A stretch of DNA of 64,000 nt from a virus (lineage: Duplodnaviria > Heunggongvirae > Uroviricota > Caudoviricetes), in IMG/VR virus record IMGVR_UViG_3300044212_000090. The stretch is one strand, 5' to 3'. The translations under genes and the position numbers were made by a program. Under the pieces are notes generated by a model. The model had not been told where the DNA came from. It saw nothing but the letters and a program-made list of their open reading frames with translations, and did not search any database. Positions 280 through 53,140 of the stretch are shown here, in pieces; position 1 is the first letter of the stretch, and the number at the start of each line of letters is the position of its first letter.

Positions 280-626
280 TAATCGAAGACATATTGCCTT
301 GTCGTCCAACGGCAGGATGCCTGACTCTGAATCAGGCGATCGTGGTCCGAATCCACGCGAGGCAGCGAAGCGATGGATGGTCCGCGCAGGGTGTCACCCC
401 AGTGCGGGACGTCGCTCATCGCCTGCACGCGGAAGCATGGTGACACATGGCTCTCGCGCAAGTCGGAACAAGAGGAACATAGGCTTGCAGCCTTGCCCAC
501 AACGGTGCTCCGATCGCCGGCTGAGAACAGCCGGAAGTCGTTTCGACGATCGGACAAGTCAGGACCAGGCCACCGCCGAAAGGTTAGGGATGCGGGTTCG
601 AGCACCGCGCGTCGGAACGACTTCAT

Positions 627-699
627 GCCTTTGTGGCTCAGTGGATAAAGCAGCCGCCCCCTAAGCGGCAGATCGCGGGTCCGAATCCCGCCGAAGGCA
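627..699 (+). tRNA. tRNA-Arg (anticodon CCT; C at position 33 is unusual)
   Basis: Cloverleaf read by eye: acceptor GCCTTTG/CGAAGGC, D-arm GCTCAGTGGATAAAGC, anticodon stem GCCGC/GCGGC with loop CCCCTAA, T-arm GCGGGTCCGAATCCCGC. Confidence 0.55.
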
Positions 700-783
700 C
701 GCTGCCGACTCCCCGCATGGCGGGAGTCTGTTATGGGCGTAGCCCCGGCACACGCCATGCTCGCCGACCGAGAACGGTCATAC

Positions 784-859
784 GCCCCCATAGCTCAAAC
801 GGTTGAAGAGCATCCGCCTCTTAAGCGGAGGGCTGTCGGTTCGAGTCCGACTGGAGGCA
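784..859 (+). tRNA. tRNA-Lys (anticodon CTT)
   Basis: Acceptor GCCCCCA/TGGAGGC (one mismatch), D-arm AGCTCAAACGGTTGAAGAGC, anticodon stem TCCGC/GCGGA loop CTCTTAA, T-loop GGTTCGAGTCC. Confidence 0.7.
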
Positions 860-972
860 CGCAGTATCAGTAGGCTATGAGTTGGCAGCGTAGGTAACAC
901 TACCGGGTTAGTCGTGACCCCCAACGAGCTGAACGCATATAGCGACCGGTCGGGTGCAAGGCCCGGCAATAC

Positions 973-1046
973 GCCTCTATGGCTCAATCGGATAGAGCAG
1001 CCGCCTACGAAGCGGCAGGTTGCAGGTTCAAGTCCTGCTGGAGGCA
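973..1046 (+). tRNA. tRNA-Arg (anticodon ACG)
   Basis: Acceptor GCCTCTA/TGGAGGC, D-arm GGCTCAATCGGATAGAGC, anticodon stem GCCGC/GCGGC loop CTACGAA, T-loop GGTTCAAGTCC. Confidence 0.8.
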
Positions 1047-1179
1047 CAAGTCGGATGGAATATGCATGTTCTTCGGACGTGCAAAAAACCTGAAGCCGAG
1101 CAGTCGCTCTCTTCGGAGGGCATGGATTGAAATTCTGTGACCACCAACGAGCCGAACGCAATAGCGGACAGCCGGACGC

Positions 1180-3432: not shown

Positions 3433-3832
3433 CGACGGCATGGTGTGGGCGGCCTACCCTACCGCAGAGCTGGCGCTGGATGCCGCCGTCCGCTGCGAGA
3501 CGACGCTCTCGGGCGCGACGCACATCTACAAGGCGGACGAAGATGCTTGGATAGTCGAGGATGACGGCATCGAGCGCCCGCATGTCCATCGTCTTCCGGC
3601 GGGCGAGGGCTCCTTCGGGCACGATTTCCGCTTCTCCGATCTGATCGGCGACGAACCCGACTTCACATGGCCGACCGGAAAAACGGACAATACGTTTCTG
3701 GGCGATTGGTGCGACGTGGATCCCGCATTCGACCTGCTAGAGGGCCGCGCCGACGAGGCGACCATAGCCTCGGCGCAGACGGATGACGGGGCGTATGTCG
3801 CCCTGATGGGCTGGCGCGGTGCTCGCGCATAG
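3422..3832 (+). CDS. acidic hypothetical protein
   Basis: Start MMTDDGMVW overlaps the previous stop (ATGATGACTGA); acidic composition. Confidence 0.45.
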   Translation: MMTDDGMVWAAYPTAELALDAAVRCETTLSGATHIYKADEDAWIVEDDGIERPHVHRLPAGEGSFGHDFRFSDLIGDEPDFTWPTGKTDNTFLGDWCDVDPAFDLLEGRADEATIASAQTDDGAYVALMGWRGARA

Positions 3833-5648: not shown

Positions 5649-6272
5649 ATGAACCAGCCCTCCATGACTCCCCGCAAAGCGGCCATCTACCTGCGCATAT
5701 CGCTCGACCGCGAGATGGACGGTCTGGCTATCGACCGCCAGCGCGAGCAGTGCGATGCGCTCGCCAAATACCGCCAGTGGCAGGTTGTCGAGACCTACGT
5801 CGACCAGTCGAAGAGCGCTACGGACCGCACCAAAGTCCGCCCTGCCTACGACCAGATGGTCGCTGACTACAAGGCTGGTGCCTTCGACGCCATCATCTGC
5901 TACGACCTCGACCGGCTCACTCGCCAACCCCGCCAGCTCGAAGACTGGATCGACGCATCCGAGCTGCGCGGCCTCGCCCTGGTCACCGCCAACGGCGACG
6001 CCGACCTCTCCACCGGTTGCTACACCGCAGGGGGCACTGGCGACATACCCAGCCTGTCCGACTTCGAGGACGCCTACCAAGGCCAATGGGACAGCTCCCG
6101 TGAGTACGCTGAACGGCTGGCCGACGACATCGGTCTCACCGACGGCTGGCCGGAGGAAGCCACCCGCTACTTCGACTGGGGCGCTGGACCCGAGACCTGC
6201 GCTTCGACTACACCGTCGCCGACGCCCCCGATGGTGGCGTCTTCGTGTTCCGCAACTACTGAACTCGCCTGA
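5649..6272 (+). pseudogene. serine recombinase (resolvase/invertase catalytic domain), truncated remnant
   Basis: AIYLRISLDREMDGLAIDRQREQC catalytic-Ser region and DLSTG motif present; sequence diverges right after DLSTG and lacks the E-helix/HTH or large C-terminal domain. Confidence 0.5.
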
Positions 6273-10458: not shown

Positions 10459-11333
10459 GATGAACTCCAGTGACTCACCACCCCGATATCGGGTGGTGTC
10501 ACTGGGGTCAATCGGCACCCCAGCCCGGCGACCTTCGCCTCAGGCAATGACGGCGGGCCCACTCCGTCGCGCGGGCCAGTGATAAGTCACCTCATCAACC
10601 GGGCAATCCAGTCCCCGGTCCAGGCAGTCCATCCGGGCGGGAAGGATCGTCACGCCCGACGATCTCGAACCTTCTGGGATCGTCATCAAGACACCACGAT
10701 CCTACACGTCCGGTCAAGTCTGCGCAAGCCTGATGATCTCAGAGGTTCGTTCTGTCCATAACGTGGTGCCATTCCCATAAGAAGGACACGGCGGCATCGC
10801 ACGCGGGGGATGAACGACGGCGTGCTGAGCATGGGCGCAACGAAGAGCGAACCAGATGCACCGGAGCCAAGACGGCGCTTCCGCCTGTTCTGACGACATG
10901 CCGATGAAGCCCCTGCGGCGCTAGGGGAGCGGCAATGCCAGTACCTTACTGCAGTCGACTGCCGACGCCATATTCGCCTCATGCGCATGACGGACAGCCG
11001 AATCACGAGGTGCCCCGAGAGGTGCCCCGAACCGCCTCATGAAAAACAGCCCCGGAATTGCAACGTTCCTGGGGCCTGTGTTCGATTCCTGCATCACCCA
11101 CGCTCTTCTCTCCTTCTTGGCTTTCCACATCGGCTTCATGCCGCTCTTTCCGCGCCATTCCGCCGTTCCCTCGGCGTGTCCTTCCGGGCCTGTTTTCGGG
11201 GACGTTTGCCACGTTCGTGCAAATTCCGGCCCGTAGAGGTACCGCGAGAGGTACCGCGAAATCGGCAGGCGGACGCCCGGCGCGTCGCGTCCGGCTGCAA
11301 CGCTCTCCGCACTCTCCGACTATCCGCTGCCGC

Positions 11334-12617
11334 ATGGGTATCGTCATGAACGATGACAGATTCGGCAGCGTGATTGCGCGCAAGAACAGGAACGGCGACG
11401 CGGCCTCGTGGCGGGCGAAGTACCACAGTCCCATCGACGGCAGCCAGGTGACGCGCTCCTTCAGATCGAAGAGCGCGGCGTATGCTTGGCTCGATGATGA
11501 ACGCGACCTCGTGCGCGATCACATCAAGGGCCGGGCGGCATGGGTGCATCCGTCCGAGCGGGAGAGGCGCAAGAGGGGCGCGGACACGCTCTTGCGCGAA
11601 TACGCATGGGCATGGTACCGCAGGCACGGGCGGACGCGCGACGGGCATCCGCTGGCTCCGGCCACGCTGCGCTACAAGGACCTGGCGATGCTTAGGCTCG
11701 ACGCCGCGTTCGGCTCTCGCCCCCTGCGTTCCATATCGCAGCGCGACGTGGACGAATGGCTTGCCTCTCCCGGCTTCGGGGGACGAACCCCGCTGCGCAC
11801 GGCCTACCTGCTGCTGCGCTCCGTCATGGCGGCGGCCCAGAAGGATGGCTTAATCGATCGCAACCCTTGCGAGGCGGCTGTCCCCGCCAAGCCGAAGAGC
11901 GCCAATCGGCTCATCGCGCCCGCGACCCGAGAGCAGATCGCCCGCATCGAGGCGGCGATGCCGGAGTATTCGCGCATCGCCATACGGGTGGCGCTCGCGT
12001 TCGGCCTGCGGGCCGCGGAGATATGCGCGCTGAGGGTATGCGACTTCGACATGGACGCGATGATTCTGCGTCTGCGCCATTCCGTGCGCCGGGGCGAGGG
12101 GGATGTGGGGCCGCTGCGCCTGGACGGCATGAAGACCGATTCGAGCCGGGAGAACATGCCCATCCCGAGCGGACTCAAGCCGGTATTGGAGGAGCATATC
12201 GCCCGGTTCTGCGATACGGCGGGCGACGCCATGCTCATCCGCCCCGTGCGCTCCGCCGTTCTGAGCCCGAACACGCTGCGCGCCCAGTTCGACAGAGCGC
12301 GAATCAAGGCGGGACGCCCCGACCTGCATCTGCACACGCTTCGCGCCACGGCCATCAGCGAAGCGGTGCACCAGGGCGCCGAGCCCGCCGAGACCCAGCG
12401 CTTCGGGCGGCACGCGGATCCGCGCGTGAGCCTTCAGGCATACCAGCGCGCCCGGGGCGAGAGCCGCATGCGCGAACTGTCCGACGACGTGTACGCGAAC
12501 CTGTTCGGCCCATCGGGCCACGAGAGCGCCAAGGCGGAGCTGGAGCGCACGGTGCGGGAGGCGAAGCTGCTGAACGAGCGGATACTGCGATTGGAGCGGC
12601 AGGTGGCGCGAGGCTAG
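11334..12617 (+). CDS. int: tyrosine-type site-specific integrase
   Basis: C-terminal catalytic region with HxxR (HLHTLRAT) and terminal Tyr (LQAYQ) and an Arg-rich AP2-like N-terminal domain; 427 aa from ATG at ~11334. Confidence 0.8.
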   Translation: MGIVMNDDRFGSVIARKNRNGDAASWRAKYHSPIDGSQVTRSFRSKSAAYAWLDDERDLVRDHIKGRAAWVHPSERERRKRGADTLLREYAWAWYRRHGRTRDGHPLAPATLRYKDLAMLRLDAAFGSRPLRSISQRDVDEWLASPGFGGRTPLRTAYLLLRSVMAAAQKDGLIDRNPCEAAVPAKPKSANRLIAPATREQIARIEAAMPEYSRIAIRVALAFGLRAAEICALRVCDFDMDAMILRLRHSVRRGEGDVGPLRLDGMKTDSSRENMPIPSGLKPVLEEHIARFCDTAGDAMLIRPVRSAVLSPNTLRAQFDRARIKAGRPDLHLHTLRATAISEAVHQGAEPAETQRFGRHADPRVSLQAYQRARGESRMRELSDDVYANLFGPSGHESAKAELERTVREAKLLNERILRLERQVARG

Positions 12618-14803: not shown

Positions 14804-16189
14804 TCAGCCCTGCGCGACGGCGGAGAGGCTGTCGGGACCGTTCTTGGGCCGTGCGGCGATGCCCGCGGCGCTTCCGGCGACCAGCGAGCCCATGAGGGAC
14901 TTCAAGTCGATGCCCACGGCGTCGGAGAGCGCATCGGAGAGCTGGGAGGCGGCCTTGGAGGTGTCGCCCACCAGCTTCGTCTCGTTGCCCTCGCCGTACA
15001 TGGTGATGCGGTCGACCTTGGACAGCGGCTCGGAGACGGCCCGCATGATCTCGGGCAGCGCCTTGATGTACTCCTGCGCCAGGATGTAGGGGTTCGACAT
15101 GGCGTTGTACGCCTCGCCCTGCGCCTTGATGCCCGCGGCCTCGCCCTCGCCCTTGGCTTGGATGGCCTCGCCGTCGGCCCTGCCCCTTACCTTGGTGGCC
15201 TCGCCCTCGGCGGCGGCCTGCACCTTGAGGGCCTCGGATGCCTTGGTGCGGGTGAACAGGTCGGCCTCAGCGGCCTGTTGGGCCGCGTACAGATCGGCGT
15301 CCGCCTGCTTCCTCACGGTGGCGTTGAGTTCCTGCTCCCTGACTGCGGCGTTCTTCTCGGCGAGCACGGCCTGGCGTTCTGCGGCTGCGATCTGCGCGTC
15401 CTGCTCGGCGACCTTGAGCTCCTTGGTTCGCGTGGCCGTCTCGGTCTGGTACACCAGATCGGCCTCGGCCTTCGCCCGGTCGGACTCCTTCTTCAGCGCG
15501 GCCTTCTTCAATGCCAGCTCGTTGTCGCGCTCCGCGACCTCCTGCTCGGCCTGGATGCGGGCGAGCTGCGCGGCCTTCTGGATGGAGACCGACTGCTCCG
15601 CGCCCATGGCTTTGATGACGCCTTCCGTATCCGCGAAGTCCTGGACATTGAACGTGACCAGCTCAAGGCCCAGATTGTTCATGTCGGATTCGCTGACATC
15701 GAAGACGGTCTGGTTGAACTTCGCGCGGTCGCGCATGAGGTCGACCAGCTCCATGCCGCCGATCGTTTCGCGCATCTTGCCCACCAGCACCTCGGTCACG
15801 TCCGCCATCATGGCGTCGCGCTTCGCGTTCAAATAGTTGCGGGCGGCTATCTCCTTCAGCCCGTCGGAGGTGCCGATCTGGAAGTTGGCGACGGCCTTGA
15901 CGCGGATCAAAATGGCGTCCTTGGTGGGGATGAGCTCCTGGGTGACCAGCTCGCTCTGGATGGCCCCAAGCGAGAGCCTGTCGATGCGCTGGAGGAAGGG
16001 GATGATGAAGGTGCTGCCGCCGGTGATGAAGCGGCGCCTGCCCAGGCCCGTGACGACGAGCACGGCATCCGTGGGCGCGACGTGGTAGGAGGAGACGGCC
16101 AGGACGACCAGAAGGACGGCCGCGGCGCCGATGAGGATGTAGGTAAGCAAGGGATATGCCTTTCGTTTGGATGTGATGACGAAAGGCAT
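14804..16189 (-). CDS. SPFH/Band-7 (flotillin-like, YqiK-type) membrane protein
   Basis: N-terminal TM helix, SPFH core, and a long Ala/Glu/Gln/Lys-rich coiled-coil C-terminal half; start taken at MPFVITSK. Confidence 0.7.
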   Translation of the reverse strand: MPFVITSKRKAYPLLTYILIGAAAVLLVVLAVSSYHVAPTDAVLVVTGLGRRRFITGGSTFIIPFLQRIDRLSLGAIQSELVTQELIPTKDAILIRVKAVANFQIGTSDGLKEIAARNYLNAKRDAMMADVTEVLVGKMRETIGGMELVDLMRDRAKFNQTVFDVSESDMNNLGLELVTFNVQDFADTEGVIKAMGAEQSVSIQKAAQLARIQAEQEVAERDNELALKKAALKKESDRAKAEADLVYQTETATRTKELKVAEQDAQIAAAERQAVLAEKNAAVREQELNATVRKQADADLYAAQQAAEADLFTRTKASEALKVQAAAEGEATKVRGRADGEAIQAKGEGEAAGIKAQGEAYNAMSNPYILAQEYIKALPEIMRAVSEPLSKVDRITMYGEGNETKLVGDTSKAASQLSDALSDAVGIDLKSLMGSLVAGSAAGIAARPKNGPDSLSAVAQG

Positions 16190-16254
16190 ATATGCGCCTG
16201 CTGTTCGGCTAAGCGCGCGTCCCTGAGCATCCGCTGGACGCATATATCAGGGAT

Positions 16255-17181: not shown

Positions 17182-18423
17182 TCAGCCCTTCTCGTAGCGC
17201 CAGTACTCGGTGAACTCGCTGTAGAAGCCCGGCTTCTCGATGCTCACCTCGCCGCCCTGATCGCCCGGATTGCCGTCTTCGATGCCGCCGGGGTGAGCGT
17301 GGTGGGCGCCTACGGTGGCATTGTCGCCGTCGTAGAACTCCACGTGCTCCGCCGGATTCAACAGAATATCGCCTCGCTTGAGATCCTTGGCGGGGTCGGA
17401 CGGCATGTCATGACGCGCGAATCCCATCGTCGCAAGCTGCGAACCCATGCTGTAGGTCGTCCATGGCCACCCGTCTCCGAGCGGGAACTTGGCCCCGTCG
17501 CGCATCGAGTACCATACGAAGCTGGAGCAGTCCATATCGGGATCGTGGGCCCTTCGCGCCTGCGAATAGCCGATGGAGTCGTCGGCGGCGTACTTGTCCG
17601 CCTGCTTCATATAGGCTTCGACCTTGGCGTTGTCCGCCACCGCCCCGCCCGACGTCTCGGATCCGCACGATGCTGCGGGGGAGGCGGCGGATGCCCCCGC
17701 GCCCGCAGCCGGCGCCGCGCTGGCCGTGGCGGGGAAGCTCACGGATCCGATCTGCGCGTAGTACTGCTCCGCGGCGGTCCGGCGGGCATCCCATGTCGCG
17801 GAGATGCTCGCCGGACGCTCCCAGCCCGCCTCCCAGGCCCCCGCGGCCACTTTGGGATCGGTGGCGGTCAGCCAGGTCGCATACAGGGAGTTGCCGGAGA
17901 CCGGCAGGCCCAGCCCCGCCGCCTGGTCGATGAAGACGTTATTGAAGTCGCTCTGCGCGGTCATCGCCAGCAGCGTGGCCTGTGCGGACGGATCGGAATC
18001 CGACTTCCCCGCCAGCCCGTGCTGCGCGAACTGCGCCGCTATCTTCGAGCGGGGCGTCCACTGGGCCAGCCCGTACCCGTTATCAGGGCTGGCCGCGGTC
18101 GGGTTCATGCTCGATTCGGCCTGCAGATTGCCCATCACGCCCGCAGTGGAGGCGCGAGTGTACCCCTTGTCCGCGAACGCCTTCGCCACCGTCAGGACGA
18201 TGTCGCTCGCCGGCGCCGAGGTCGCCCCTGCGGCGGCATCGGCGACGGCGCCCGGGCAGTCGGAACCCGAATCGCCCGCATTGACGACCTGGTTGCCCGC
18301 CGCGGCGGAGATGGAGGCGGACTGCCCGCCTATCGCGCCCATGCCGGAGATGACGAGCACCGCGACGACGAGCGCGGCGGCGCCTATCGCCAGCGCCTTG
18401 AGTCTGAAGAGTCTGCCCAGCAT
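17182..18423 (-). CDS. bifunctional cell-wall hydrolase (lysozyme-like domain plus NlpC/P60/CHAP-like peptidase), CwlT-like conjugation hydrolase
   Basis: Signal/TM N-terminus, GYGLAQWT lysozyme-type motif, C-terminal Cys...His peptidase signature (DCSSFVWYSM ... NPAEHVEFYDG). Confidence 0.65.
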   Translation of the reverse strand: MLGRLFRLKALAIGAAALVVAVLVISGMGAIGGQSASISAAAGNQVVNAGDSGSDCPGAVADAAAGATSAPASDIVLTVAKAFADKGYTRASTAGVMGNLQAESSMNPTAASPDNGYGLAQWTPRSKIAAQFAQHGLAGKSDSDPSAQATLLAMTAQSDFNNVFIDQAAGLGLPVSGNSLYATWLTATDPKVAAGAWEAGWERPASISATWDARRTAAEQYYAQIGSVSFPATASAAPAAGAGASAASPAASCGSETSGGAVADNAKVEAYMKQADKYAADDSIGYSQARRAHDPDMDCSSFVWYSMRDGAKFPLGDGWPWTTYSMGSQLATMGFARHDMPSDPAKDLKRGDILLNPAEHVEFYDGDNATVGAHHAHPGGIEDGNPGDQGGEVSIEKPGFYSEFTEYWRYEKG

Positions 18424-23007: not shown

Positions 23008-23115
23008 TGCAGGTACGTATGCGTCGTGGGCGAAGAGGCATCGAAGAGGAGGAGAAGCGAACATTCCCGATGTGCGCTTTCCGCGCTGGGAATCCGCTTC
23101 GACGAGCGGGTTTGC

Positions 23116-23361
23116 GCCGAATATGGGCACATGGGCCGTATGCAGTGACTAGTACCCATATGCGTTTTTCGTCGTTTTTCCAACGAAAATGGGCGAAACT
23201 GCATACAGAACATACAGGTGCATACGGGCCATATGCACCCCTCATCCCTACTGCCAGTAGGGCTTTAGCCCCCCTGCATATGAGCATATGGTTTATAGAG
23301 GCTTTGGCATGTTTTACCCCTATTTCGGGGTCTCTATAGGAAAAGCCGTATGCATATGCAG
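23116..23361. repeat. ~245-bp intergenic repeat, copy 1 (divergent promoter region; contains dyad CCCTACTG-C-CAGTAGGG)
   Basis: Near-identical to 28868..29111, reverse-complement of 42996..43232, related to 55440..55690. Confidence 0.8.
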
Positions 23362-23530
23362 TCTCGTGCTTTTCGGGGCGGAATCGACGGCGAGAACGAC
23401 GCCTCCTCTGTCGTCGCCCGCGTGCATCGCACATCCCAAATCGATGCCTCGCGAGGACGGACGCCGCAGACGCATAGCGGCGAGCTGAACACCAAGATCG
23501 GTCGAATCCACGATTGAAGGAGATAGACAA

Positions 23531-28818: not shown

Positions 28819-28867
28819 GAGGGACGGCTATGCGGCGCCGAAAGAAGCGATTTGGTACTTTATTGCT

Positions 28868-29111
28868 CCGAATATGGGCACATGGGCCGTATGCAGTGAC
28901 TAGTACCCATATGCGTTTTTCGGCGTTTTTCCGCGAAAAACAGCCGAAACTGCATACAGAACATACGGGTGCATACGGGCCATATGCACCCCTCATCCCT
29001 ACTGCCAGTAGGGCTTTAGCCCCCCTGCATATGAGCATATGGTTTATAGAGGCTTTGGCATGTTTTACCCCTATTTCGGGGGTTCCATAGGAAAAGCCGT
29101 ATGCATATGCA
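28868..29111. repeat. ~245-bp intergenic repeat, copy 2
   Basis: Near-identical to copy 1; lies between divergent genes 27844..28818(-) and 29239..30609(+). Confidence 0.8.
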
Positions 29112-29238
29112 GTTCTGCCCTTTTCGGGGCCATATCCGCGAAAAAGAGGACGCTATCGCGTTCGCAGCCCACAGCTCTCGGAGAGGCCTCGCCCCTAATC
29201 GAGGCCATCCTCGCACCTTCCGACGCATACCGCCCTTC

Positions 29239-36770: not shown

Positions 36771-36947
36771 TCAGCCAAGAGCATCTTCAAGCCAGTCGCA
36801 GTCGCGGCACAGCCATTCGCCGACGCATCCATCATAGGACGCCGTGCACTCGAAGCAGACGAGACGGAGGCAGACATGGCATGGCACCAGGCAATCCCCC
36901 CTGCCGCACCTGGCACCGCATATGGCGCATGTCAGCATGTCCTGCAT
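36771..36947 (-). CDS. small Cys-rich (zinc-ribbon-like) protein
   Basis: 58 aa with CxxC...CxxC...CxxC...CxxC spacing. Confidence 0.4.
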   Translation of the reverse strand: MQDMLTCAICGARCGRGDCLVPCHVCLRLVCFECTASYDGCVGEWLCRDCDWLEDALG

Positions 36948-37037
36948 GCCGTCACCTCTGATCTCTTTCGATCCACGCTCCCGAAGGAGCGGCCAAAGAG
37001 AAAATGCGCAACGGCACCTTCTCTTTGGTACCATGCG

Positions 37038-38636
37038 TCAGCCCCGGAAGAAGTCGCTGATGACGTTCGGCGTGCTCGTATCGAACCCCACGACGTCAAG
37101 CTGCCCGACGTCGGTCGGATCGGCTATCGAGAAGCCGCTGGAGGTCATGCCGACCACGGCGAGCCGTGCGTCGATGCCCGAGGCCCTGCGGTACTCGGCG
37201 AGCGCCTGCGTGGGCTTGATGTCGCCCGCGAAGGTCTCATTGTCGGTCAGGATTTCAAACGAATCGAACTCCTTGCCATGCTCCTTCGCCCAGACCATCG
37301 GCAGGGCGCAGTCGGTGGCCCCCATCGGCAGGCCGGAGATGGCGCAAAGATTGTCGTCGAGGCGGCGGCGCGGGGAGACGTCCAAGGGGGTCAGCTCCGC
37401 GCCCGTATTCCAGCCGAAGCTGTCCGCGCTCTTCGCGGTGAAGCCCACGATTTCATATTCGCGCTCTGACTTCGCGGTGACCATCGCCAGCGCGGCGGAT
37501 GCCTCGCGTGGCGTGATGGGCAGCCCCGCGATGGAGTCATAGCCCATCGAGCCGGAGATGTCCAGGGCCAGCAGCGTGCGCCTGCCGGTCGGCTCCACCG
37601 CGTCGAACGAGAGGTAGAACGCCTCGTCCAGCACATCGCAGATGCGATGGACCGGCGTCCATGTCAGCGAGCCCTTGAGGCCATGTCCGGAGGCGTACGT
37701 CTTCAGGGCCACGAGCAGGGCGAGCGGGTGCAGCCGCGCCCGCTTGATGGCCTCCGCATCGGTCAGGCGCTCAGCCACGCCGCCAAGCACGCCCAACTTG
37801 GTCAGCCGGGGGAGCTGGCGCATCAGGGCTCCCAGCGGCACGGAGTCGTTGTCCAGCAGCGCCCGCCAGACCTCGGGGGAGTTCAGGGCCTCGGAGGGCA
37901 GCGCCTCCCACGGAAGACGGGAGAATGCCCTGTCGGCCCGCAGGGCCGTCGCGAGGTCCTTGGGGACCATGCGCTGCGCCTCCTCAAACGCCCTGGTGAA
38001 GTCCGAGCCGCCCGTGCGGTGGGCCATCCAGTCGAGGATTGCCGCGGTGGCCTCGTCATCGGTCTTCGGGTGCGAGAGGCGCAGCAGATCGCGGTGGGTC
38101 CACCCGTCGCGCTGGCGGTACTTGACGGCCTGATACTCCAGTGCCGAGGCGTCGCGGGCGGTGTACCAGGACGCCACGGCGCGGCGAAGGGCGCGCCCCC
38201 AGCCTCGGAACTGCTCGGCGTAGGCCACGAACATGAACAGGTGCGTGGAGGTGCGGGCGACCTTCGGCAGCGCCTCAAGCGCGTAGGAGCGCCCCGCGTC
38301 GTCCGCGACGGAGGCCGCGACGGCGAGCGCGAAGAGCGCCGGGTTCTGGCGGGGCGCGCGCCCGTTCGCGGACACGTCCACGATGGCGTCCACCAGCGCT
38401 TGAGGTTCGGACTTCGCCAGCGCGAAGACGACCCCGGCGTTCTCGCGGGCGTATTCGGTCGGCTTGGCGTAGTAGGTGCCGCCGTCCACTCCGAGGATGA
38501 GGAAGCGATGCAGGCGCTTCATGTCGTCGACTGCGAATACGTAGCCGCCGGCGGAGTTCCTCGTCTCGTCGGCCCGGCCCGGCGTGCGCTCGGTCTGCGG
38601 GGTGCGGCGGGTGGATATGGTCTTCAGGGCGTCCAT
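37038..38636 (-). CDS. rsr: Ro60-like ribonucleoprotein Rsr (TROVE domain + vWA)
   Basis: ~530-aa product with long TROVE-like helical region and vWA MIDAS motif (LALDISGSMGY); start MDALKTIS taken inside the 783-aa frame whose 5' part overlaps the Y-RNA locus. Confidence 0.7.
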   Translation of the reverse strand: MDALKTISTRRTPQTERTPGRADETRNSAGGYVFAVDDMKRLHRFLILGVDGGTYYAKPTEYARENAGVVFALAKSEPQALVDAIVDVSANGRAPRQNPALFALAVAASVADDAGRSYALEALPKVARTSTHLFMFVAYAEQFRGWGRALRRAVASWYTARDASALEYQAVKYRQRDGWTHRDLLRLSHPKTDDEATAAILDWMAHRTGGSDFTRAFEEAQRMVPKDLATALRADRAFSRLPWEALPSEALNSPEVWRALLDNDSVPLGALMRQLPRLTKLGVLGGVAERLTDAEAIKRARLHPLALLVALKTYASGHGLKGSLTWTPVHRICDVLDEAFYLSFDAVEPTGRRTLLALDISGSMGYDSIAGLPITPREASAALAMVTAKSEREYEIVGFTAKSADSFGWNTGAELTPLDVSPRRRLDDNLCAISGLPMGATDCALPMVWAKEHGKEFDSFEILTDNETFAGDIKPTQALAEYRRASGIDARLAVVGMTSSGFSIADPTDVGQLDVVGFDTSTPNVISDFFRG

Positions 38637-38711
38637 GATAGGGGCTCCTTCTTTGTTCGGACCGCCCGATGTGGCGGTCATGTGTCTGACGTGGGATATA
38701 TGCGTCCCGGA

Positions 38712-38768
38712 AACAGGAAAAGCCCTCGCGAGCGGTCGTGCAGACCGCCTGCGAGGGCTTTTCCTGAT
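38712..38768 (-). terminator. rho-independent terminator downstream of the Y-RNA-like gene
   Basis: AAAAGCCCTCGCAGGCGGTC-TGCAC-GACCGCTCGCGAGGGCTTTT followed by CCTGTTTCC on the minus strand. Confidence 0.6.
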
Positions 38769-38770
38769 AA

Positions 38771-38918
38771 GAAGAGAACGGCGGACATGTTGTGGAATCC
38801 GGAAAATACGCGCTCTGCCAACTGAGCTACACGGGCATGGAGCCCGTGGCGGGACTTGAACCCGCGACCTCGCCGTTACCAGTGGATAACCGGATTCCCC
38901 CGGCCCGCCATTCTCTTC
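38771..38918 (-). ncRNA. yrlA: YrlA-type bacterial Y RNA (Ro-binding-like terminal helix + permuted tRNA-like module)
   Basis: Termini pair as GAAGAGAAUGGCGG/CCGCCGUUCUCUUC and GGAAUCCGG/CCGGAUUCC around an internal loop. Core contains T-arm GCGGG-UUCAAGU-CCCGC, then an acceptor-like stem closed by a loop (CACGGGC-UCCAU-GCCCGUG), then D-arm GCUC-AGUUGG-CA-GAGC. Sits immediately upstream of rsr on the same strand. Confidence 0.6.
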
Positions 38919-39705
38919 GACTCTTAAGTTGTATGTGCGTCGGACATGTGACTGGCATCGGAGGATATCGTATGCAGGAGATAACCGATGCCATCCGGCC
39001 CGCCGCACATCCACCCTATGCGTCCCGCTTCTCGTTCCTCCAGCCGTCCAGGGATTGGATATAGCAGCCTTCGAGAAGACGCAGCATCCGCCATGGCTCC
39101 GACTGCCGATGCGATTCCAGTAGTCGTCGCCGAATTTGTGCGCAATGTCAAGGATGGCACCGCCCGGCTCGGTGATGACATAGTAGCCATCGGCGTCAGG
39201 TTCGTCCGCATCCCTGTTCAGCAGGATGCGGCGATCGCGAATTTCAGGGGACACCTCATGCAGCCAATCGACCAGCCATCCGAACTGCTGGCCCCCCAGC
39301 TCGATGTCCAGGATGTGCTCTGATGCCCTCGCCTCGCCCGGCTTGTAGAACGCGATGCGCATGCCATCGCCCATACGCGCGAAGAACATGGCTATCCGCT
39401 TGTCGCTCCATCCGAGAACCGCCCGAAGTCGATGCTGTCGAATGCTCCGCTTGGCCCGACGAGCCGAAATGCGAGTCGCTCACTTCATTGTGCTCGAACC
39501 CTTGGGGATTGCCGAGGCCATGCCCAAGGAGCCATGAGACGAAGGGGGCCACGAACGACGCCGGCTCATTGAAGCCGCCGAGCGGGCGCAGCCCGCCGGG
39601 CGTGTACTGCACGACGGAGAAGCGCAGTCCGCCGCCGTCGCGGCGCGAGAGCGTGAGCCTCAGGTCCGTTGCCGCCATCCAGATCGACATGCCTGTCATC
39701 TTCCG

Positions 39706-42745: not shown

Positions 42746-42995
42746 GCTCTCCATATGCGTCCCGGATGGGCGGGTATGATCGATTCCCGCGAGCGACAAG
42801 AGCATTAGGGATATGGGGCCGGACGAGCTGAAGGCTGCGGCGACAGAGAGCGAACAGGCGCGCGCCGCAGTGGACGCCGAGCGCCGGCGGCGATGGGATT
42901 CGTTCAAGGAAATCCCGAAAACGCCTTTCAAGAGCATCCTCGACTGGTCGCGGCGCGCCCGGCGTCCATTAACGGAATCCCCGTAAATCATCGAA

Positions 42996-43232
42996 CTGCA
43001 TATGCATACGGCTTTTCCTATAGAGACCCTGAAACAGGGCTAAATCACACTAAAGCCCCTATAAACCATATGCTCATATGCAGGGGGGCTAAAGCCCTAC
43101 TGGCAGTAGGGATGAGGGGTGCATATGGCCCGTATGCACCCGTATGTTCTGTATGCAGTTTCGCCCATTTTCGGCGGAAAAACGCCGAAAAACGCATACG
43201 GGTGCTAGCCGGCGCATACGGCGCATATGCCT
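42996..43232. repeat. ~245-bp intergenic repeat, copy 3 (inverted orientation)
   Basis: Reverse complement of copies 1/2 with a diverged distal end; between divergent genes 42344..42745(-) and 43227..43703(+). Confidence 0.75.
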
Positions 43233-43703: not shown

Positions 43704-43959
43704 GCGGGGTGCATGCAGGAGAGCGAGGAAGCGGCGATTCCTCCCCGCCCACAAGGGGCGGAGTTTCCTCGCCGCAAATCTCATGAAGCCCCCGCGCGAA
43801 GCCCAAGCATCTCTCGGACAACCAAGAAAAAGACGGCTTCGCGCGGGGCCTTTTTCCTCAAGCGGGACGCATCAGAGAGGCAACGAGGGCGCTCAGAGGT
43901 CGTCCGAACAGCCAATATGCTGGCAGCGCCCTCGCCCAACCTATAGAAGGAGAACCCAT

Positions 43960-44790
43960 ATGAAGACTCTAGATGACCCGGCTCTGTCTAAGCTCGCGGA
44001 CATGCTCGATGATCTGGAAGGCGAGCGCAAGGCCACTGCGAACCGCGTGCGCATCCTCACCGCCGCCACGCCCGACGAGGACGGCGTCATGCGAGGCTTC
44101 GCGCTGTCCGCCGACGATCCGTCCGTAAGGACCATGGAGGCGCTCAACGAGGGGCTCTCCAAGTTGGAGCACGAGGCGGTCCTCCAGCTCCAGCGGGTCA
44201 TGCGCAAGCACCCGCTCGGCGCATGGCAGAGGGCGCAGAAGGGCGTGGGGGAGAAGACCCTCGCCCGTCTGCTCGGAGCCATCGGAGACCCGTACATCCG
44301 CCGCGACGACGGGCAGCCGCGCACCGTGCACCAGCTCTGGGCGCTGTGCGGGCTCCACGTCATCGAGGGACGCGCTGCAAAGCGCGCGAAGGGCGTGCAG
44401 TGCAATTGGAGCACCATCGCCAAGACCCGGGCCTACTTGATTTCCGAGGCCATCGTCAAGGCCGGCGTGCGCACCGCCGAGGACGGCTCCAAGATCGCCC
44501 TCTCGCCCTACGCGCAGGCGTATCTCGACCGCCGCGCCCACACCGCGCTCACGCATCCCGAGGCGAGCGCAGCGGACGAGAGGAAGGGTCTGGGCTGGAC
44601 GAAGGCCCACGCCCACGCGGATGCCATGCGCATCGTCTCCAAGACCTTCCTGAAGGCCCTGTGGCGCGAGGCCAAGCGATTGCACGAGGAGGAGGGCGGG
44701 GGCGACGGCTCGCTTCTTCTGGTAATCGATGGAGTGAAAGACTCCGACTTCGCCGCGCTTAAGAGCGAAGCGTCGCTTGCGAGCGCCTGA
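43960..44790 (+). CDS. hypothetical protein (possible replication/relaxation-associated protein; speculative)
   Basis: 276-aa ORF with AAGGAGA RBS, convergent with the FtsK-like translocase. Confidence 0.45.
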   Translation: MKTLDDPALSKLADMLDDLEGERKATANRVRILTAATPDEDGVMRGFALSADDPSVRTMEALNEGLSKLEHEAVLQLQRVMRKHPLGAWQRAQKGVGEKTLARLLGAIGDPYIRRDDGQPRTVHQLWALCGLHVIEGRAAKRAKGVQCNWSTIAKTRAYLISEAIVKAGVRTAEDGSKIALSPYAQAYLDRRAHTALTHPEASAADERKGLGWTKAHAHADAMRIVSKTFLKALWREAKRLHEEEGGGDGSLLLVIDGVKDSDFAALKSEASLASA

Positions 44791-46931: not shown

Positions 46932-47465
46932 ATGAAGAATCTACGAGAACTGAAGCAGCACTACATGCCGGATATCTGCACCGTATCTGCGGCGCTCATC
47001 CGCTCCGGCGTGTACCTGTGCCTGTGCGACAACTGTCTGACCTATCAGGAGACGGGCCGCGAGGGCGCCATCGCCTTCCTCGCGCGCCACTACCCGCACG
47101 GCATGCACCATGTGATCGACGTGCCCATATCCGGCGATTTCGACGCGGTGCGCATGGACGGCTTTCGCACGTTCCGCAACTCCCGCGAGGCCGCTGCGGG
47201 GCTGGGCACGGCGAACGGTATGCTCCTCGCCGAACCGGAGGAGATCGTCGCCGCGGCCTGCGCGAACGGCGAGGCCTACGGGCACCGCTGGGCGCTGCCC
47301 AACCGCATCGTCATGGATGGCCGTGAGACGTTCTCGTGCGACAAGGCCGCTGCGGACGCCATGAAGAGGAACGAGAACTCCAAGGCGAACGCGGGCAACA
47401 TCGCCCGCGCCGCGAGCCGCGGGAACGGCGTGGCGTACGGTCATCGCTGGGAGTGGGCGCTATGA
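46932..47465 (+). CDS. hypothetical protein with internal AYGHRW repeat
   Basis: Start MKNLRELK 8 nt after GACGCATAT; two copies of (G)xAYGHRW(A/E). Confidence 0.45.
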   Translation: MKNLRELKQHYMPDICTVSAALIRSGVYLCLCDNCLTYQETGREGAIAFLARHYPHGMHHVIDVPISGDFDAVRMDGFRTFRNSREAAAGLGTANGMLLAEPEEIVAAACANGEAYGHRWALPNRIVMDGRETFSCDKAAADAMKRNENSKANAGNIARAASRGNGVAYGHRWEWAL

Positions 47466-48046
47466 GCGCCCGCCTCTTCCTCGACTTCGACGGCGTGCTC
47501 AACGTGCTGGGCGATGCCGCGCATTTCCACGACGATGCCCATTTCGACGCCGATCGCGAGGCGTACGCGCCCATCGACGGCATCGCCTACCATCTGCGCT
47601 GGTCGGGCGAGCTGGCGGACCGCCTCTCCGCGCTCTTCGCCGACTGCGAGGCGACATGGCTCTCCACGTGGGAGCCGTACGTGGGCCTCCTGGAGCCGAA
47701 GCTCGGCTGGGACCCGCATGCCATCGGCACCGTGAAATGGTACGACCCGGTGACGTGGATAGGCCGGAGCACCGGCAAGCTGGAGACCATCCTCTCCGCC
47801 GTGCGGGGCGGCGGCGCCGAGCCCATCATCTGGGTCGACGACGAGGAGTGCGGGACATGCGCGAAACGGAAGATACAGCGCCTATGTCCGGCCATGCCGG
47901 TGCTCATGGTTCGACCCAGCCCCGTGACCGGCATATCGAAGCGGCAGTTGGCACTGATCGAGCACGCCGTGCATGGCAGCATCGCGCCCGGCGTGACGCT
48001 GGACGACGAGGCGCGTTTCAGCCCTACTTCGCACCAAGGCCTCTGA
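47462..48046 (+). CDS. HAD-superfamily hydrolase-like protein
   Basis: N-terminal LFLDFDGVL (HAD motif I DxDGVL). Confidence 0.5.
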   Translation: MSARLFLDFDGVLNVLGDAAHFHDDAHFDADREAYAPIDGIAYHLRWSGELADRLSALFADCEATWLSTWEPYVGLLEPKLGWDPHAIGTVKWYDPVTWIGRSTGKLETILSAVRGGGAEPIIWVDDEECGTCAKRKIQRLCPAMPVLMVRPSPVTGISKRQLALIEHAVHGSIAPGVTLDDEARFSPTSHQGL

Positions 48047-52559: not shown

Positions 52560-53140
52560 ATCCTGTGACGCATATGCGTATCCAGCGCGCGACGTCAACG
52601 TTCTCCATAAAGACGATGGCGGCGGCAGAAGCCCCTTACTGCTTCGTAACGGACCGGGCCAGCGCCGCGCGCATTGCTTTCCTTCGGGACGCACACGAAA
52701 CACTGCGCGGCGTCAACGTCGCTGCATCGAATGGTTTCAACAGCATTCGGCGCGGAGCGATGGCGGGGAGCAGCCCGATCGATCACCTCGGCAAGCCACG
52801 ACCCCCGCCAGCGCCGCGCCTTTTCCTCTTATCGGACGCATAGCGCGTATCGCACGGCGTCAACGTCGCCGCCGCGGATCCTTTGAGACAGTCCGTGGGC
52901 GGATCGATGGCGGGGATAGGACGATTTAGACAACCTTTTTCGTCTGCTGAAGCCCCGCCAGCGCCGTGCATTTTCCTTATCGGACGCATAGGCATTATCA
53001 GAACGCGGCGTCAACGCCGCTGCCCTGCGGGCTTTACGGGATCATTCACTCGCGGGATTGCAGAACGATGGCGGGCGAGGATGGTCTGATAACCTTCCAC
53101 CCGATGACCCCGCCAGCGCCGCGCTCTTCCTCTTTTCAGA
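52560..53140. repeat. tandem array of four degenerate ~140-bp repeats
   Basis: Each unit carries GCGGCGTCAACG(T/C)CGC ... GATGGCGGG ... CCCCGCCAGCGCCG(C/T)GC ... TT(A)TCGGACGCATAG. Confidence 0.7.

What the first reader, a model, noticed from the sequence alone, without database searches (positions are those of the whole stretch)
37038..38918. Rsr (Ro60/TROVE-vWA) with an upstream YrlA-type Y RNA carrying a circularly permuted tRNA-like module, embedded in a mobile element
On the minus strand immediately upstream of the rsr-like gene is a ~150-nt segment whose two ends pair extensively. The terminal helix is GAAGAGAAUGGCGG with CCGCCGUUCUCUUC; after an asymmetric internal loop comes a 9-bp helix GGAAUCCGG/CCGGAUUCC. 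The core reads, in order, a perfect T-arm (GCGGG-UUCAAGU-CCCGC), an acceptor-like 7-bp stem closed by a 5-nt loop (CACGGGC-UCCAU-GCCCGUG), and a canonical D-arm (GCUC-AGUUGG-CA-GAGC). This is the published architecture of bacterial Y RNAs of the YrlA class: an effector (Ro)-binding stem formed by the RNA termini plus a tRNA mimic whose acceptor stem is capped. A separate hairpin terminator follows, so the RNA is its own transcription unit. The six-frame track wrongly runs an ORF across it. Rsr/Y-RNA modules are usually chromosomal or prophage-borne next to RtcB/RtcR; here there is no RtcB and the module sits inside a putative conjugative element, which would be an unusual vehicle for an RNA quality-control/repair module.
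Basis: partly seen in the sequence, partly recalled or inferred. Interest (0 to 1): 0.8.

Follow-up and report, generated by a model that had tools for sequence, protein, structure and literature searches.

The report
Rsr gene with two Y RNAs
This is an ordinary bacterial Ro60 (Rsr) gene preceded by its partner non-coding Y RNAs, one carrying a tRNA look-alike domain and one a plain hairpin, an arrangement already described in hundreds of bacteria and actinobacterial phages, here sitting in a gene island rich in mobile-element genes.

Summary
Window 38918..38771 (-) is a 148-nt RNA. Its ends pair, and its core reads T-arm, capped 7-bp acceptor-like stem, D-arm. The gene 135 nt downstream (38636..37038, -) is a full-length Rsr/Ro60 (TROVE + Ro60-vWA).

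A covariance model built only from rsr-linked RNAs of 43 other loci hits exactly this segment (118 bits, E 7e-25) and nothing else significant in 64 kb. On 49 homologues, 93% of cells pair against 35-47% when partners are slid, and 21 of 29 pairs show compensatory changes. The Rfam YrlA score (42 bits) is below gathering (69), but so were the YrlA matches in all eight rsr loci that matched among ten scanned (34-50 bits).

It has the same Rsr-binding stem and no tRNA module (independent model: 50.7 bits, E 3e-9).

The locus matches the published YrlA + second-Y-RNA + rsr layout (Chen et al. 2014), also seen here in phages Sparky and Cashline. Lack of RtcB is not unusual there. The surroundings are mobile-element-like, but conjugation is not shown.

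Verdict: new member of a known kind; low interest.

The parts
39016..39025 (-). Promoter/operator-like motif GGACGCATAG. Its last bases start a TANNNT hexamer (TAGGGT, 39018-39013), 6-7 nt before the short Y RNA.
   Evidence: The motif is over-represented: 22 hits against 4.9 +/- 2.2 in shuffles. The same motif precedes YrlA in the nearest relative, L081:6804. Its function is inferred.
38931..39012 (-). Short Y RNA (YrlB/Yrn2-like long hairpin; model core 39006-38937). It shares the GGCGGGCCGGA...CGGUUAUC 5' strand and the CACAUGUCCG 3' strand with YrlA. It has a pyrimidine-rich loop and no tRNA module.
   Evidence: Model R2 was built from 23 short rsr-linked hairpins of other loci. It gives one hit in the window, 50.7 bits, E 2.7e-9. 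Fold. Alignments. R2 finds 64 such hits in 80 rsr loci, all on the rsr strand.
38771..38918 (-). YrlA-class Y RNA, 148 nt.
   Evidence: R1, built without the window sequence, gives 118.4 bits, E 7e-25, with ends exactly 38918/38771. Rfam RF02553 gives 42.3 bits, E 4e-8. Fold z = -6.1. Covariation.
38898..38906 (-). Presumed Rsr-contact motif GGGCCGGGG on the 5' strand. The family consensus here is GGGCCGGAG; the published motif is GNCGAAN0-1G.
   Evidence: G13, G15, C17 and G18 are invariant in 49 homologues. The motif definition is from PMC4201824. Binding itself is not tested.
38871..38889 (-). V region, starting with the conserved YUAY (UUAU, 38889-38886). It is followed by AGGUC (38870-38866), equivalent to a tRNA variable loop ending in C48.
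   Evidence: T30 and C34 are invariant. The V stem is poorly supported by covariation: 65% paired against 62% when slid by +1.
38849..38865 (-). T-arm mimic, GCGGG-UUCAAGU-CCCGC.
   Evidence: 99.6% of cells are paired and 3 of 5 pairs covary. The loop GGUUCxAxxCC is invariant.
38830..38848 (-). Acceptor-stem mimic: 7 bp, CACGGGC/GCCCGUG, capped by the loop U-CCA-U.
   Evidence: All 7 pairs covary and 92.5% of cells are paired. Stem length and loops across homologues.
38812..38827 (-). D-arm mimic, GCUC-AGUUGGCA-GAGC, preceded by UA (positions 8-9 of a tRNA).
   Evidence: UAGCUxA...AGAGC is invariant in 49 homologues.
38714..38766 (-). 23-bp GC-rich hairpin with a weak U tail. It is a candidate terminator or 3' stabiliser of the Y RNA unit.
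   Evidence: -47.6 kcal/mol, z = -7.6. The consensus terminator scan did not call it.
38698..38707 (-). Second copy of the motif (GGACGCATAT), between the hairpin and rsr.
   Evidence: The analogous copy in L081 lies at 9950, 51 nt before rsr.
37038..38636 (-). rsr: Ro60 ortholog, 532 aa (TROVE ring + vWA with DISGS MIDAS motif). A GAAGGAG Shine-Dalgarno lies 8 nt before the ATG.
   Evidence: Pfam. NCBIfam RNA-bind_Rsr 495 bits over the full length. PDB 2NVO, 1YVP, 9NEN. 7020 homologues found, with conserved N-terminus MDxLxTIxTRRTPQ.

Best explanation
The locus encodes a bacterial Ro60 ribonucleoprotein module: the ring protein Rsr plus two partner Y RNAs made from the DNA just upstream.

Both RNAs carry the same stem, formed by their 5' and 3' ends with the conserved GGGCCG(G/A)(A/G)G strand. 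By homology this stem docks on Rsr.

- The longer RNA (YrlA) carries a compact tRNA mimic in place of a loop. Read from 5' to 3' it has a variable-loop-like AGGUC, a T-arm, an acceptor stem closed by a loop, U8-A9 and a D-arm. The Rsr-binding stem therefore emerges where the anticodon stem of a tRNA would be.
- The shorter RNA is a plain long hairpin with a pyrimidine-rich loop.

By analogy with D. radiodurans, S. Typhimurium and M. smegmatis, the Y RNAs gate access to the Rsr ring and tether it to an effector. The effector is PNPase or a still unidentified tRNA-elbow-binding protein. The complex then degrades or repairs structured or damaged RNA under stress.

This YrlA has a 7-bp acceptor stem and a loop reading U-CCA-U. 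It may, like M. smegmatis YrlA, be nicked by RNase P to give a two-piece RNA with a CCA end.

What is shown here: sequence and structure membership, covariation, linkage to rsr, and an intact rsr. What is inferred: expression, Rsr binding, the effector, RNase P processing, the transcription units and the biological role.
For: - R1, built from 43 other loci, hits window 38918..38771 at 118.4 bits, E 7e-25. This is among the six best of the family and the only significant hit in 64 kb.
- Covariation on 49 sequences: 93.1% of cells paired against 35-47% when slid; score 0.60 against 0.09-0.15; 21 of 29 pairs have compensatory changes.
- R1 finds 108 such RNAs in 60 of 80 rsr loci from many phyla, 107 of them on the rsr strand.
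- Rfam YrlA is the best and only meaningful Rfam hit.
- The features defined by Chen et al. 2014 are present: YUAY, the V, T, AS and D arms, same strand, within 4 kb of Ro60.
- The second Y RNA is confirmed by independent model R2. Chen et al. report that each studied species has a tRNA-like Y RNA plus a long-hairpin Y RNA.
- Rsr is full-length and matches 2NVO, 1YVP and 9NEN.
- The same layout occurs in actinophages. Sparky has YrlA 3607-3755, a short Y RNA 3762-3832 and Ro at 4001. Cashline has two YrlA copies directly upstream of Ro.
Against: - The Rfam score of 42.3 bits is below the curated gathering score of 69. However, all eight rsr-linked YrlA matches found among ten other loci scanned score 34-50 bits, so the threshold reflects the enteric seed rather than non-membership.
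- The published GNCGAA motif reads GCCGGG here.
- NCBIfam's Rsr equivalog cut-off (900 bits) is not reached (495 bits).
- There is no expression, binding or modification data for this locus.
- The V hairpin is weak.
- No sigma-70 consensus promoter or canonical terminator was found.
Confidence: 0.9

Rival explanations
1. The two structured RNAs act mainly in cis, as a leader of the rsr mRNA. In this reading Rsr or a tRNA-binding factor binds its own 5' region, the 23-bp hairpin acts as an attenuator, and the RNAs are not independent trans-acting Y RNAs.
For: The RNAs lie 135-375 nt upstream of rsr on the same strand. A strong hairpin sits between them and the start codon. In M. smegmatis, YrlA and YrlB are processed from one precursor upstream of rsr.
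Against: - A second copy of the recurrent promoter-like motif lies between the hairpin and rsr (38707-38698).
- In the nearest relative, a 2.7-2.9 kb SIR2_2 gene on the opposite strand separates the Y RNAs from rsr by 3 kb, and both are retained.
- In other genomes the RNAs lie downstream of rsr.
- Published Y RNAs accumulate as free Rsr-bound RNAs.
Confidence: 0.15
2. It is a circularly permuted tRNA gene. After processing by RNase P and trimming to CCA, it would yield a functional, chargeable split tRNA used in translation.
For: It has a 7-bp acceptor stem with an encoded U-CCA-U loop, a perfect T-arm and D-arm, and a G15/C48 Levitt pair by sequence. M. smegmatis YrlA is cleaved by RNase P and receives CCA.
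Against: - There is no anticodon arm. The position is occupied by a 25-bp stem with the Rsr-binding motif.
- The V hairpin is weak and not conserved.
- ARAGORN and the Rfam tRNA model do not call it.
Confidence: 0.03
3. The tRNA-like pieces are remnants of two tRNA genes, for example att-site debris from integration of the mobile element.
For: The surroundings contain integrase, resolvase and transposase genes and a tRNA cluster.
Against: - Neither half has another copy in the window, even allowing 3 mismatches.
- The two halves pair with each other over 7 bp.
- The whole 148-nt unit, including the non-tRNA stems, is conserved and covaries in 60 of 80 rsr loci.
Confidence: 0.01
4. The region is protein-coding, an N-terminal extension of Rsr giving the 783-aa ORF.
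For: An uninterrupted reading frame runs from 39389 to 37038.
Against: - GC3 drops to background between about 39100 and 38650 and is 0.83-1.0 inside rsr.
- 26 homologues all start at the MDxLxT motif encoded at 38636, which has a GAAGGAG Shine-Dalgarno.
- M. smegmatis YrlA was likewise buried in a mis-annotated ORF.
Confidence: 0.01

Closest known systems
Mycobacterium smegmatis YrlA/YrlB-Rsr locus (Chen et al. 2014, PMC4201824)
   Same: - It is actinobacterial.
- The Y RNAs lie 5' of rsr on the same strand, hidden in a mis-called ORF.
- YrlA has V, T, 7-bp AS and D arms and a GAGCCG/GGGCCG 5' motif.
- A second Rsr-bound RNA lies next to it.
- No RtcB lies adjacent.
   Different: Here the short RNA lies upstream of YrlA rather than between YrlA and rsr, and it has no T-arm. 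CCA is fully encoded in the AS loop, whereas CA is added post-transcriptionally in M. smegmatis. The context here is a mobile-element-like island. Nothing has been tested experimentally.
Salmonella Typhimurium rsr-yrlBA-rtcBA operon; Rfam RF02553; crystal structure 6CU1
   Same: Both have a two-module YrlA (Rsr-binding stem plus tRNA mimic with capped acceptor stem) together with a short hairpin YrlB.
   Different: - The Y RNAs lie 3' of rsr in Salmonella and 5' here.
- RtcB, RtcA and RtcR are absent here.
- The Salmonella AS is shorter and is not cleaved by RNase P.
- The Rfam model scores this RNA at only 42 of the 69 bits required.
Ro-like protein + YrlA of actinobacteriophages (e.g. Mycobacterium phage Sparky, Gordonia phages Cashline and Sixama)
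   Same: Rsr is 51-54% identical. YrlA (79-115 bits with R1) lies beside Ro: directly upstream in Sparky and Cashline, and within the tRNA cluster about 1 kb downstream in Sixama. Sparky also has a short Y RNA. The modules are carried by mobile DNA, with no RtcB.
   Different: No capsid, portal or terminase gene was found among the ORFs tested in this 64-kb window. The window instead has restriction-modification, ArdA-like, FtsK-like and surface-protein genes.
Deinococcus radiodurans Rsr-Yrn1-PNPase (RYPER)
   Same: Rsr matches at 8e-110. The general mechanism is the same: a Y RNA tethers Rsr to an effector nuclease.
   Different: Yrn1 has a different arm order and only partial tRNA features. 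According to Chen et al., it evolved independently of YrlA.
[quoted passage not shown]
   Same: A Band_7/flotillin gene (14804-16243) is present in this element and, at 65% identity, in the related element L081.
   Different: It lies 21 kb away from rsr. No tRNA-like RNA lies next to it and no RtcB is present. The link is only circumstantial.

Membership tests
YrlA-class bacterial Y RNA | Encoded within 4 kb of a Ro60/Rsr ortholog on the same strand | tested here: met
   The RNA ends 135 nt upstream of the rsr ATG, on the same strand.
YrlA-class bacterial Y RNA | 5' and 3' ends pair into a long stem carrying the GNCGAAN0-1G motif on the 5' strand | tested here: inconclusive
   The stem is present and covaries (helices 1 and 2). 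The motif reads GCCGGGGG: GNCG is kept and AA is replaced by GG. The consensus of 49 homologues is GCCGGAG.
YrlA-class bacterial Y RNA | Conserved YUAY opening the V region | tested here: met
   UUAU at 38889-38886. T30 and C34 are invariant in the alignment.
YrlA-class bacterial Y RNA | Order T stem-loop, AS stem-loop, D stem-loop with near-invariant T and D sequences | tested here: met
   GGUUCxAxxCC and UAGCUxA...AGAGC are invariant. The AS covaries at 7 of 7 pairs.
YrlA-class bacterial Y RNA | Nucleotides for tRNA tertiary pairs (U8:A14, G15:C48, G18/G19 with 55/56, 54:58) | tested here: met
   Read directly from the sequence: U90 A91; D loop AGUUGGCA; AGGUC before the T stem; T loop UUCAAGU. 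The three-dimensional fold was not tested.
YrlA-class bacterial Y RNA | Reaches the Rfam RF02553 gathering score (69 bits) | tested here: not met
   42.3 bits, E 4e-8. All eight rsr-adjacent YrlA matches found among ten other loci scanned also score 34-50 bits, so the threshold excludes this whole branch.
YrlA-class bacterial Y RNA | Significant match to a covariance model of rsr-linked YrlA built without this sequence | tested here: met
   118.4 bits, E 7e-25, full length 1-146 of 146.
YrlA-class bacterial Y RNA | Bound by Rsr; carries psi55 and dihydrouridine; stable small transcript | not testable with these tools
   Requires immunoprecipitation, Northern blotting and modification mapping.
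Second (YrlB/Yrn2-type) Y RNA | Rsr-binding stem, long hairpin with small pyrimidine-rich loop, encoded beside rsr | tested here: met
   39012-38931; loop UUAUCUCCUGCAUACGAUAUCCU. R2 gives 50.7 bits, E 2.7e-9. This class has no curated Rfam family.
Rsr / Ro60 | TROVE (HEAT-repeat ring) followed by a Ro60-type vWA domain with a MIDAS motif, full length | tested here: met
   Pfam PF05731 5e-46 and PF25045 1e-57. DISGS is present. 2NVO matches residues 4-532.
Rsr / Ro60 | NCBIfam NF041674 equivalog cut-off (900 bits) | tested here: not met
   495 bits over 3-532. It is a full-length homologue but diverged from the equivalog seed.
rsr-yrlBA-rtcBA RNA-repair operon | Adjacent RtcB ligase, RtcA cyclase and RtcR activator | tested here: not met
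   No RtcB, RtcA or RtcR domain in any ORF scanned across the 64 kb.
Conjugative element (ICE/plasmid) | Relaxase plus coupling protein/T4SS ATPase, or an actinomycete TraB-type FtsK translocase with a replication/integration module | tested here: inconclusive
   - Found: Tyr integrase 11058-12617, resolvase/ArdA-like 5649-6272, transposase 43783-44790, and cell-wall hydrolase 17182-18423.
- Found: an FtsK/SpoIIIE-like 625-aa protein, with Pfam 5e-4 below cut-off and PHROG 6e-16.
- Not found: relaxase, VirB4 or VirD4.
- There is no plasmid DNA match.
Tailed phage / prophage | Capsid, portal, terminase and tail genes | tested here: not met
   None was found among 20 unknown ORFs in PHROGs or about 60 ORFs in Pfam. 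The only phage-like hits are an RDF-like Phage_VG64 gene, a lysozyme, and a PHROG 'virion structural protein' match for the ORF that Pfam calls LemA. The window may not cover the whole element.

The most novel reading that the evidence does not exclude
Rsr plus two Y RNAs is a cargo module of a so far undescribed family of actinobacterial mobile elements. The family would comprise this window and the ENA/Logan contigs L081-L084. These share Rsr at 69% identity, Band-7 at 65%, PIF1 at 45%, and a family-specific intergenic motif GGACGCATA placed separately before the Y RNAs and before rsr.

In this reading the module serves the element in conflict with RNA-targeting host or rival toxins. The YrlA, with its template-encoded N-CCA acceptor loop, would be processed by RNase P into a nicked tRNA decoy or repair platform.
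Probability: 0.1. Interest if true: 0.55.

Novelty: new member of a known kind. Interest (0 to 1): 0.2.

Why it matters
The finding adds one more instance to a family known since 2014, so it matters little for RNA biology.

Three practical points follow.

1. Rfam's YrlA gathering score missed this RNA and all eight rsr-linked YrlA matches found among ten other loci scanned. Genome annotation will therefore routinely miss these RNAs and let ORF callers run across them.
2. Short hairpin Y RNAs with the same Rsr-binding stem are widespread beside rsr (64 hits in 80 loci) and have no curated model.
3. Rsr/Y RNA modules travel on mobile DNA of Actinobacteria. They occur in 353 phage records and in this island. 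This supports the view that they act in RNA-damage conflicts, but the analysis here does not test that view.

Tried and rejected
- **V hairpin as an anticodon arm (7-nt YU-NNN-RN loop).** By eye many homologues look like this. MFE folding found it in only 3 of 44, and the stem shows no better pairing than a slid control (65% against 62%). Dropped.
- **Enrichment of N-CCA loops after a 7-bp AS.** Found in 5 of 62 homologues plus the window, several of them close relatives or paralogues. This is too few independent cases to claim selection.
- **att-site or tRNA-fragment origin.** No second copy of either half exists.
- **Phage identity of the window.** The megablast match is limited to an RDF-like gene at 73% identity. 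PHROGs shows no credible structural genes.
- **Plasmid identity.** No DNA match. Rsr occurs in only 7 of 72,556 plasmids, mostly megaplasmids.
- **Known defence system.** PADLOC gave nothing for Rsr and its neighbours.
- **Near relatives in IMG/VR and JGI metagenomes.** None in IMG/VR, and one 45%-identity relative in JGI metagenomes. The JGI contig carrying a 100% identical Rsr fragment does not reach the Y RNAs.
- **Consensus promoter and terminator scans.** Nothing found.
- **Conservation of the small Cys-rich ORF just after rsr (36771-37034) and of the ORF upstream (39389-39100).** No homologues in any locus.
- **Literature.** Burroughs & Aravind 2016 and the 2020 Annual Review could not be read.
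Full report
**Observation**

The RNA candidate spans window 38918..38771 (148 nt).

- The ends form a 16-bp helix, GAAGAGAAUGGCGGGC with GUCCGCCGUUCUCUUC.
- After a small asymmetric loop comes GGAAUCCGG/CCGGAUUCC.
- The core reads AGGUC, then the T-arm GCGGG-UUCAAGU-CCCGC (38865-38849).
- Next comes a 7-bp stem CACGGGC/GCCCGUG capped by UCCAU (38848-38830), then UA.
- Last is the D-arm GCUC-AGUUGGCA-GAGC (38827-38812).

The predicted fold reproduces this. MFE is -75.9 kcal/mol, 6.1 sd below dinucleotide shuffles.

A 23-bp hairpin follows at 38766-38714 (-47.6 kcal/mol, z -7.6). Its U tail is weak and the simple terminator scan did not call it.

The mechanical ORF list contains a 783-aa frame (37038..39389) running across the RNA. 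The GC3 frame plot shows no coding signal from about 39100 to 38650 and a very strong one (0.83-1.0) from 38650 down.

**The protein**

The CDS 38636..37038 (532 aa) has a GAAGGAG Shine-Dalgarno 8 nt upstream.

- It matches Pfam TROVE (5e-46) and the Ro60-type vWA domain (1e-57).
- It matches NCBIfam RNA-bind_Rsr over its full length, at 495 bits against a cut-off of 900.
- It matches D. radiodurans Rsr 2NVO (8e-110) and vertebrate Ro60 structures.
- 7020 homologues were found. The nearest full-length one is 69% identical. Named ones at about 55-57% are from Actinomycetaceae, Bifidobacteriaceae and relatives.
- The N-terminus MDxLxTIxTRRTPQ and the MIDAS DxSGS motif are conserved.

**Is the RNA a YrlA?**

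The Rfam gathering scan of the window found only four tRNAs. A permissive scan of 501 nt gave YrlA (RF02553) as the only meaningful hit, 42.3 bits, E 4e-8, below the gathering score of 69.

To judge this I fetched 80 rsr loci from genomes of many phyla and the contigs of the nearest relative. A simple T-arm...D-arm pattern already showed such modules next to rsr in most loci.

A MAFFT alignment of 49 of them, including the window, has these invariant blocks:

- GGGCCG
- GGUUAYC
- GGUUCxAxxCC
- UAGCUxA...AGAGC

RNAalifold predicts the terminal helix, inner helix, T, acceptor-like and D helices. Of 29 pairs, 21 show compensatory changes.

Counting pairs gave 93.1% of cells paired against 35-47% when the 3' partners are slid by 1-3 columns. 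The covariation score was 0.60 against 0.09-0.15, and no shuffle of 500 reached it. The helices were not used to select the sequences.

A covariance model (R1) built from 43 sequences of other loci only hits window 38918..38771 end to end at 118.4 bits, E 7e-25. No other hit in the 64 kb has E below 0.01.

The same model finds 108 RNAs in 60 of the 80 loci, 107 of them on the rsr strand. The window's score is among the six highest.

Of ten other rsr loci scanned with Rfam, eight gave rsr-adjacent YrlA matches. All eight score 34-50 bits on Rfam YrlA, below gathering. The sub-threshold Rfam score therefore reflects that model's narrow seed, not a reason to exclude this RNA.

The features match the definition in Chen et al. 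2014 (PMC4201824):

- same strand and within 4 kb of Ro60;
- a 5' motif resembling GNCGAAN0-1G, here GCCGGGGG, so only partly matching;
- YUAY opening a V region;
- T, AS and D stem-loops;
- bases for the tRNA tertiary pairs.

The T7 primer that paper used for M. smegmatis YrlA contains ...GATGTGAGCCG, the same 5' block as this family.

It was confirmed by the 6CU1 crystal structure (10.1101/312249).

**A second Y RNA**

Directly upstream, at 39012..38931, is a long hairpin. It repeats the YrlA stem on both strands: GGCGGGCCGGA...CGGUUAUC on the 5' side and CACAUGUCCG on the 3' side. In place of the tRNA module it has a 23-nt pyrimidine-rich loop.

Similar short hairpins occur beside rsr in many loci. 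A model built from 23 of them without the window gives a single hit in the window, 39006..38937, 50.7 bits, E 2.7e-9. It gives 64 hits in the 80 loci, all on the rsr strand.

**Transcription**

This section is inferred. No sigma-70 consensus promoter was found.

A 10-nt motif, GGACGCATA(G/T/A), is strongly over-represented in the window: 22 hits against 4.9 +/- 2.2 expected. It is also over-represented in the nearest relative L081: 11 against 1.5. It is essentially absent from the other loci.

It is mostly intergenic and oriented with the downstream gene, often 7-9 nt before the start codon.

- One copy lies just before the short Y RNA (39025-39016). Its end forms a TANNNT hexamer, TAGGGT.
- Another lies between the big hairpin and rsr (38707-38698).
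- In L081, copies precede YrlA (6804) and rsr (9950).
- The 12-nt spacer between the short Y RNA and YrlA has no such motif.

The most economical reading is two units: one running motif, short Y RNA, YrlA, hairpin; the other running motif, rsr.

In L081/L082 a 906-967-aa SIR2_2 gene on the opposite strand lies between the Y RNAs and rsr, putting YrlA 3.08 kb upstream of rsr, and both are kept. This also argues for separate units.

**Context**

The window has 62-71% G+C. It carries:

- four tRNA genes at its start;
- several DNA methylases, type I restriction-modification M and S subunits, a resolvase/ArdA-like protein, a tyrosine integrase and a Band-7/flotillin protein;
- a lysozyme and a 1306-aa repeat surface protein;
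- a PIF1-type helicase and a SpaA-domain protein;
- an RDF-like Phage_VG64 protein and an FtsK/SpoIIIE-like protein;
- a transposase.

This is clearly mobile-element-like. However, no relaxase, VirB4/VirD4, capsid, portal or terminase was detected. There is no plasmid DNA match, and the only phage DNA match is to the RDF-like gene. 'Conjugative' is therefore unproven.

Only Rsr (69%), Band-7 (65%) and PIF1 (45%) are shared with L081.

**Is the vehicle unusual?**

Rsr homologues at 51-54% identity occur in 353 of 50,697 phage records, nearly all actinophages. They occur in only 7 of 72,556 plasmids, mostly non-mobilizable megaplasmids.

In phages Sparky, Cashline and Sixama the Ro gene is accompanied by YrlA-type RNAs. 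In Sparky a short Y RNA is also present, with no RtcB nearby.

Chen et al. already listed 22 phages. Iyer et al. 2021 (PMC7824862) mention TROVE proteins with a tRNA-like partner in jumbo phages.

Mobile carriage and absence of RtcB are therefore established for this family. Carriage on a non-phage island would be a modest extension.

No RtcB, RtcA or RNA ligase was found in the window. A weak HAD_SAK_2 hit (24 bits, below cut-off) lies 9 kb away.

**Mechanism**

By homology, both RNAs dock on the Rsr ring through the conserved stem. YrlA presents a tRNA-shaped module whose elbow (T and D stems) is the likely effector-binding surface.

Known roles are gating of the ring and tethering of PNPase for degradation of structured RNA. 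A link to RNA repair has been proposed.

The 7-bp acceptor stem is the feature that made M. smegmatis YrlA an RNase P substrate. Here the loop reads U-CCA-U, so a discriminator base and CCA are template-encoded. RNase P cleavage before G83 (38836) is a reasonable but untested prediction.

**Verdict**

The locus is a new member of a known kind: YrlA + short Y RNA + rsr.

Noticed in passing
window 38931-39012 (-): A second, short Y RNA (long hairpin, pyrimidine-rich loop) lies directly upstream of YrlA. It duplicates both strands of the Rsr-binding stem. No Rfam family covers this class, yet 64 similar RNAs lie beside rsr in the 80 loci examined.
   Followed up: yes
window, 22 sites (e.g. 233+, 13579-, 16236+, 19546+, 38707-, 39025-, 42762-, 46907-/46914+, 52834+, 52982+); L081, 11 sites: The 10-nt motif GGACGCATA(G/T/A) is over-represented 4-7 fold. 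It is mostly intergenic, oriented with the downstream gene, and often 7-9 nt before the start codon. It sometimes occurs as inverted pairs. It also precedes a tRNA gene and the Y RNAs. It is specific to this window and the L081-L084 contigs. It looks like an element- or lineage-specific promoter or operator, reminiscent of phage stoperators and start-associated sequences.
   Followed up: partly
window 23112-23411 (+), 28863-29162 (+), 42979-43231 (inverted): A 250-300-nt repeat (88-90% identity) is present three times. Each copy lies immediately upstream of, or overlapping, a gene start: the surface protein, the PIF1 helicase and the RDF-like gene.
   Followed up: no
window 52681-53132: Three tandem units of about 150 nt, two of them with an exact GGACGCATAG copy, lie in an apparently non-coding stretch.
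   Followed up: no
L081:6814-10001 and L082:4247-7434: In the nearest relative (Rsr 69% identical), YrlA and a short Y RNA are separated from rsr by a 906-967-aa SIR2_2 gene on the opposite strand. Neighbours include a DnaN-like clamp, an RNA ligase (PF09414), NT5C, an SNF2 helicase, a CHAP hydrolase and a DNA methylase.
   Followed up: partly
window 38837-38841 (-): The loop capping the 7-bp acceptor-like stem reads U-CCA-U, that is, a template-encoded discriminator plus CCA followed by one nucleotide before G+1. The same N-CCA-U occurs in a few homologues (L007, L008, L047, L073). This is too few to call it selected.
   Followed up: partly
L001, L003, L004, L027, L032, L038, L076, L078: All eight rsr-adjacent YrlA matches found among ten loci scanned (L022 and L053 gave none) score 34-50 bits on Rfam RF02553, whose gathering score is 69. 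Standard annotation will therefore miss YrlA outside the seed clade.
   Followed up: yes
window 39100-39389 (-): An ORF with a coding-like GC3 signal starts at 39389 but has no in-frame stop before it runs through both Y RNAs into rsr. It is either a small gene that lost its stop codon or a chance frame. No homologue was found.
   Followed up: partly
window 14804-16243 (-) and L081:1-624: A Band-7/flotillin protein is shared at 65% identity with the related element. Band-7 genes are linked in the literature to tRNA-like RNAs and RtcB, but no such RNA lies next to it here.
   Followed up: no
window 47336-48046 (+): A weak match (E 5e-5, 24 bits, below cut-off) to HAD_SAK_2, the HAD domain of 'Swiss Army Knife' RNA repair proteins, lies 9 kb from rsr.
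   Followed up: no
window 295-1047 (+): A cluster of four tRNA genes (Gln-CTG, Arg-CCT, Lys-CTT, Arg-ACG) is preceded at 233 by the GGACGCATAG motif. Several other rsr loci and Ro-carrying phages also have tRNA clusters next to rsr (L003, L022, L038, Sparky, Sixama).
   Followed up: no
window 5649-6272 (+): A 207-aa ORF gives overlapping Pfam hits to the Resolvase N-terminal domain (5e-22) and to ArdA antirestriction protein (9e-8).
   Followed up: no
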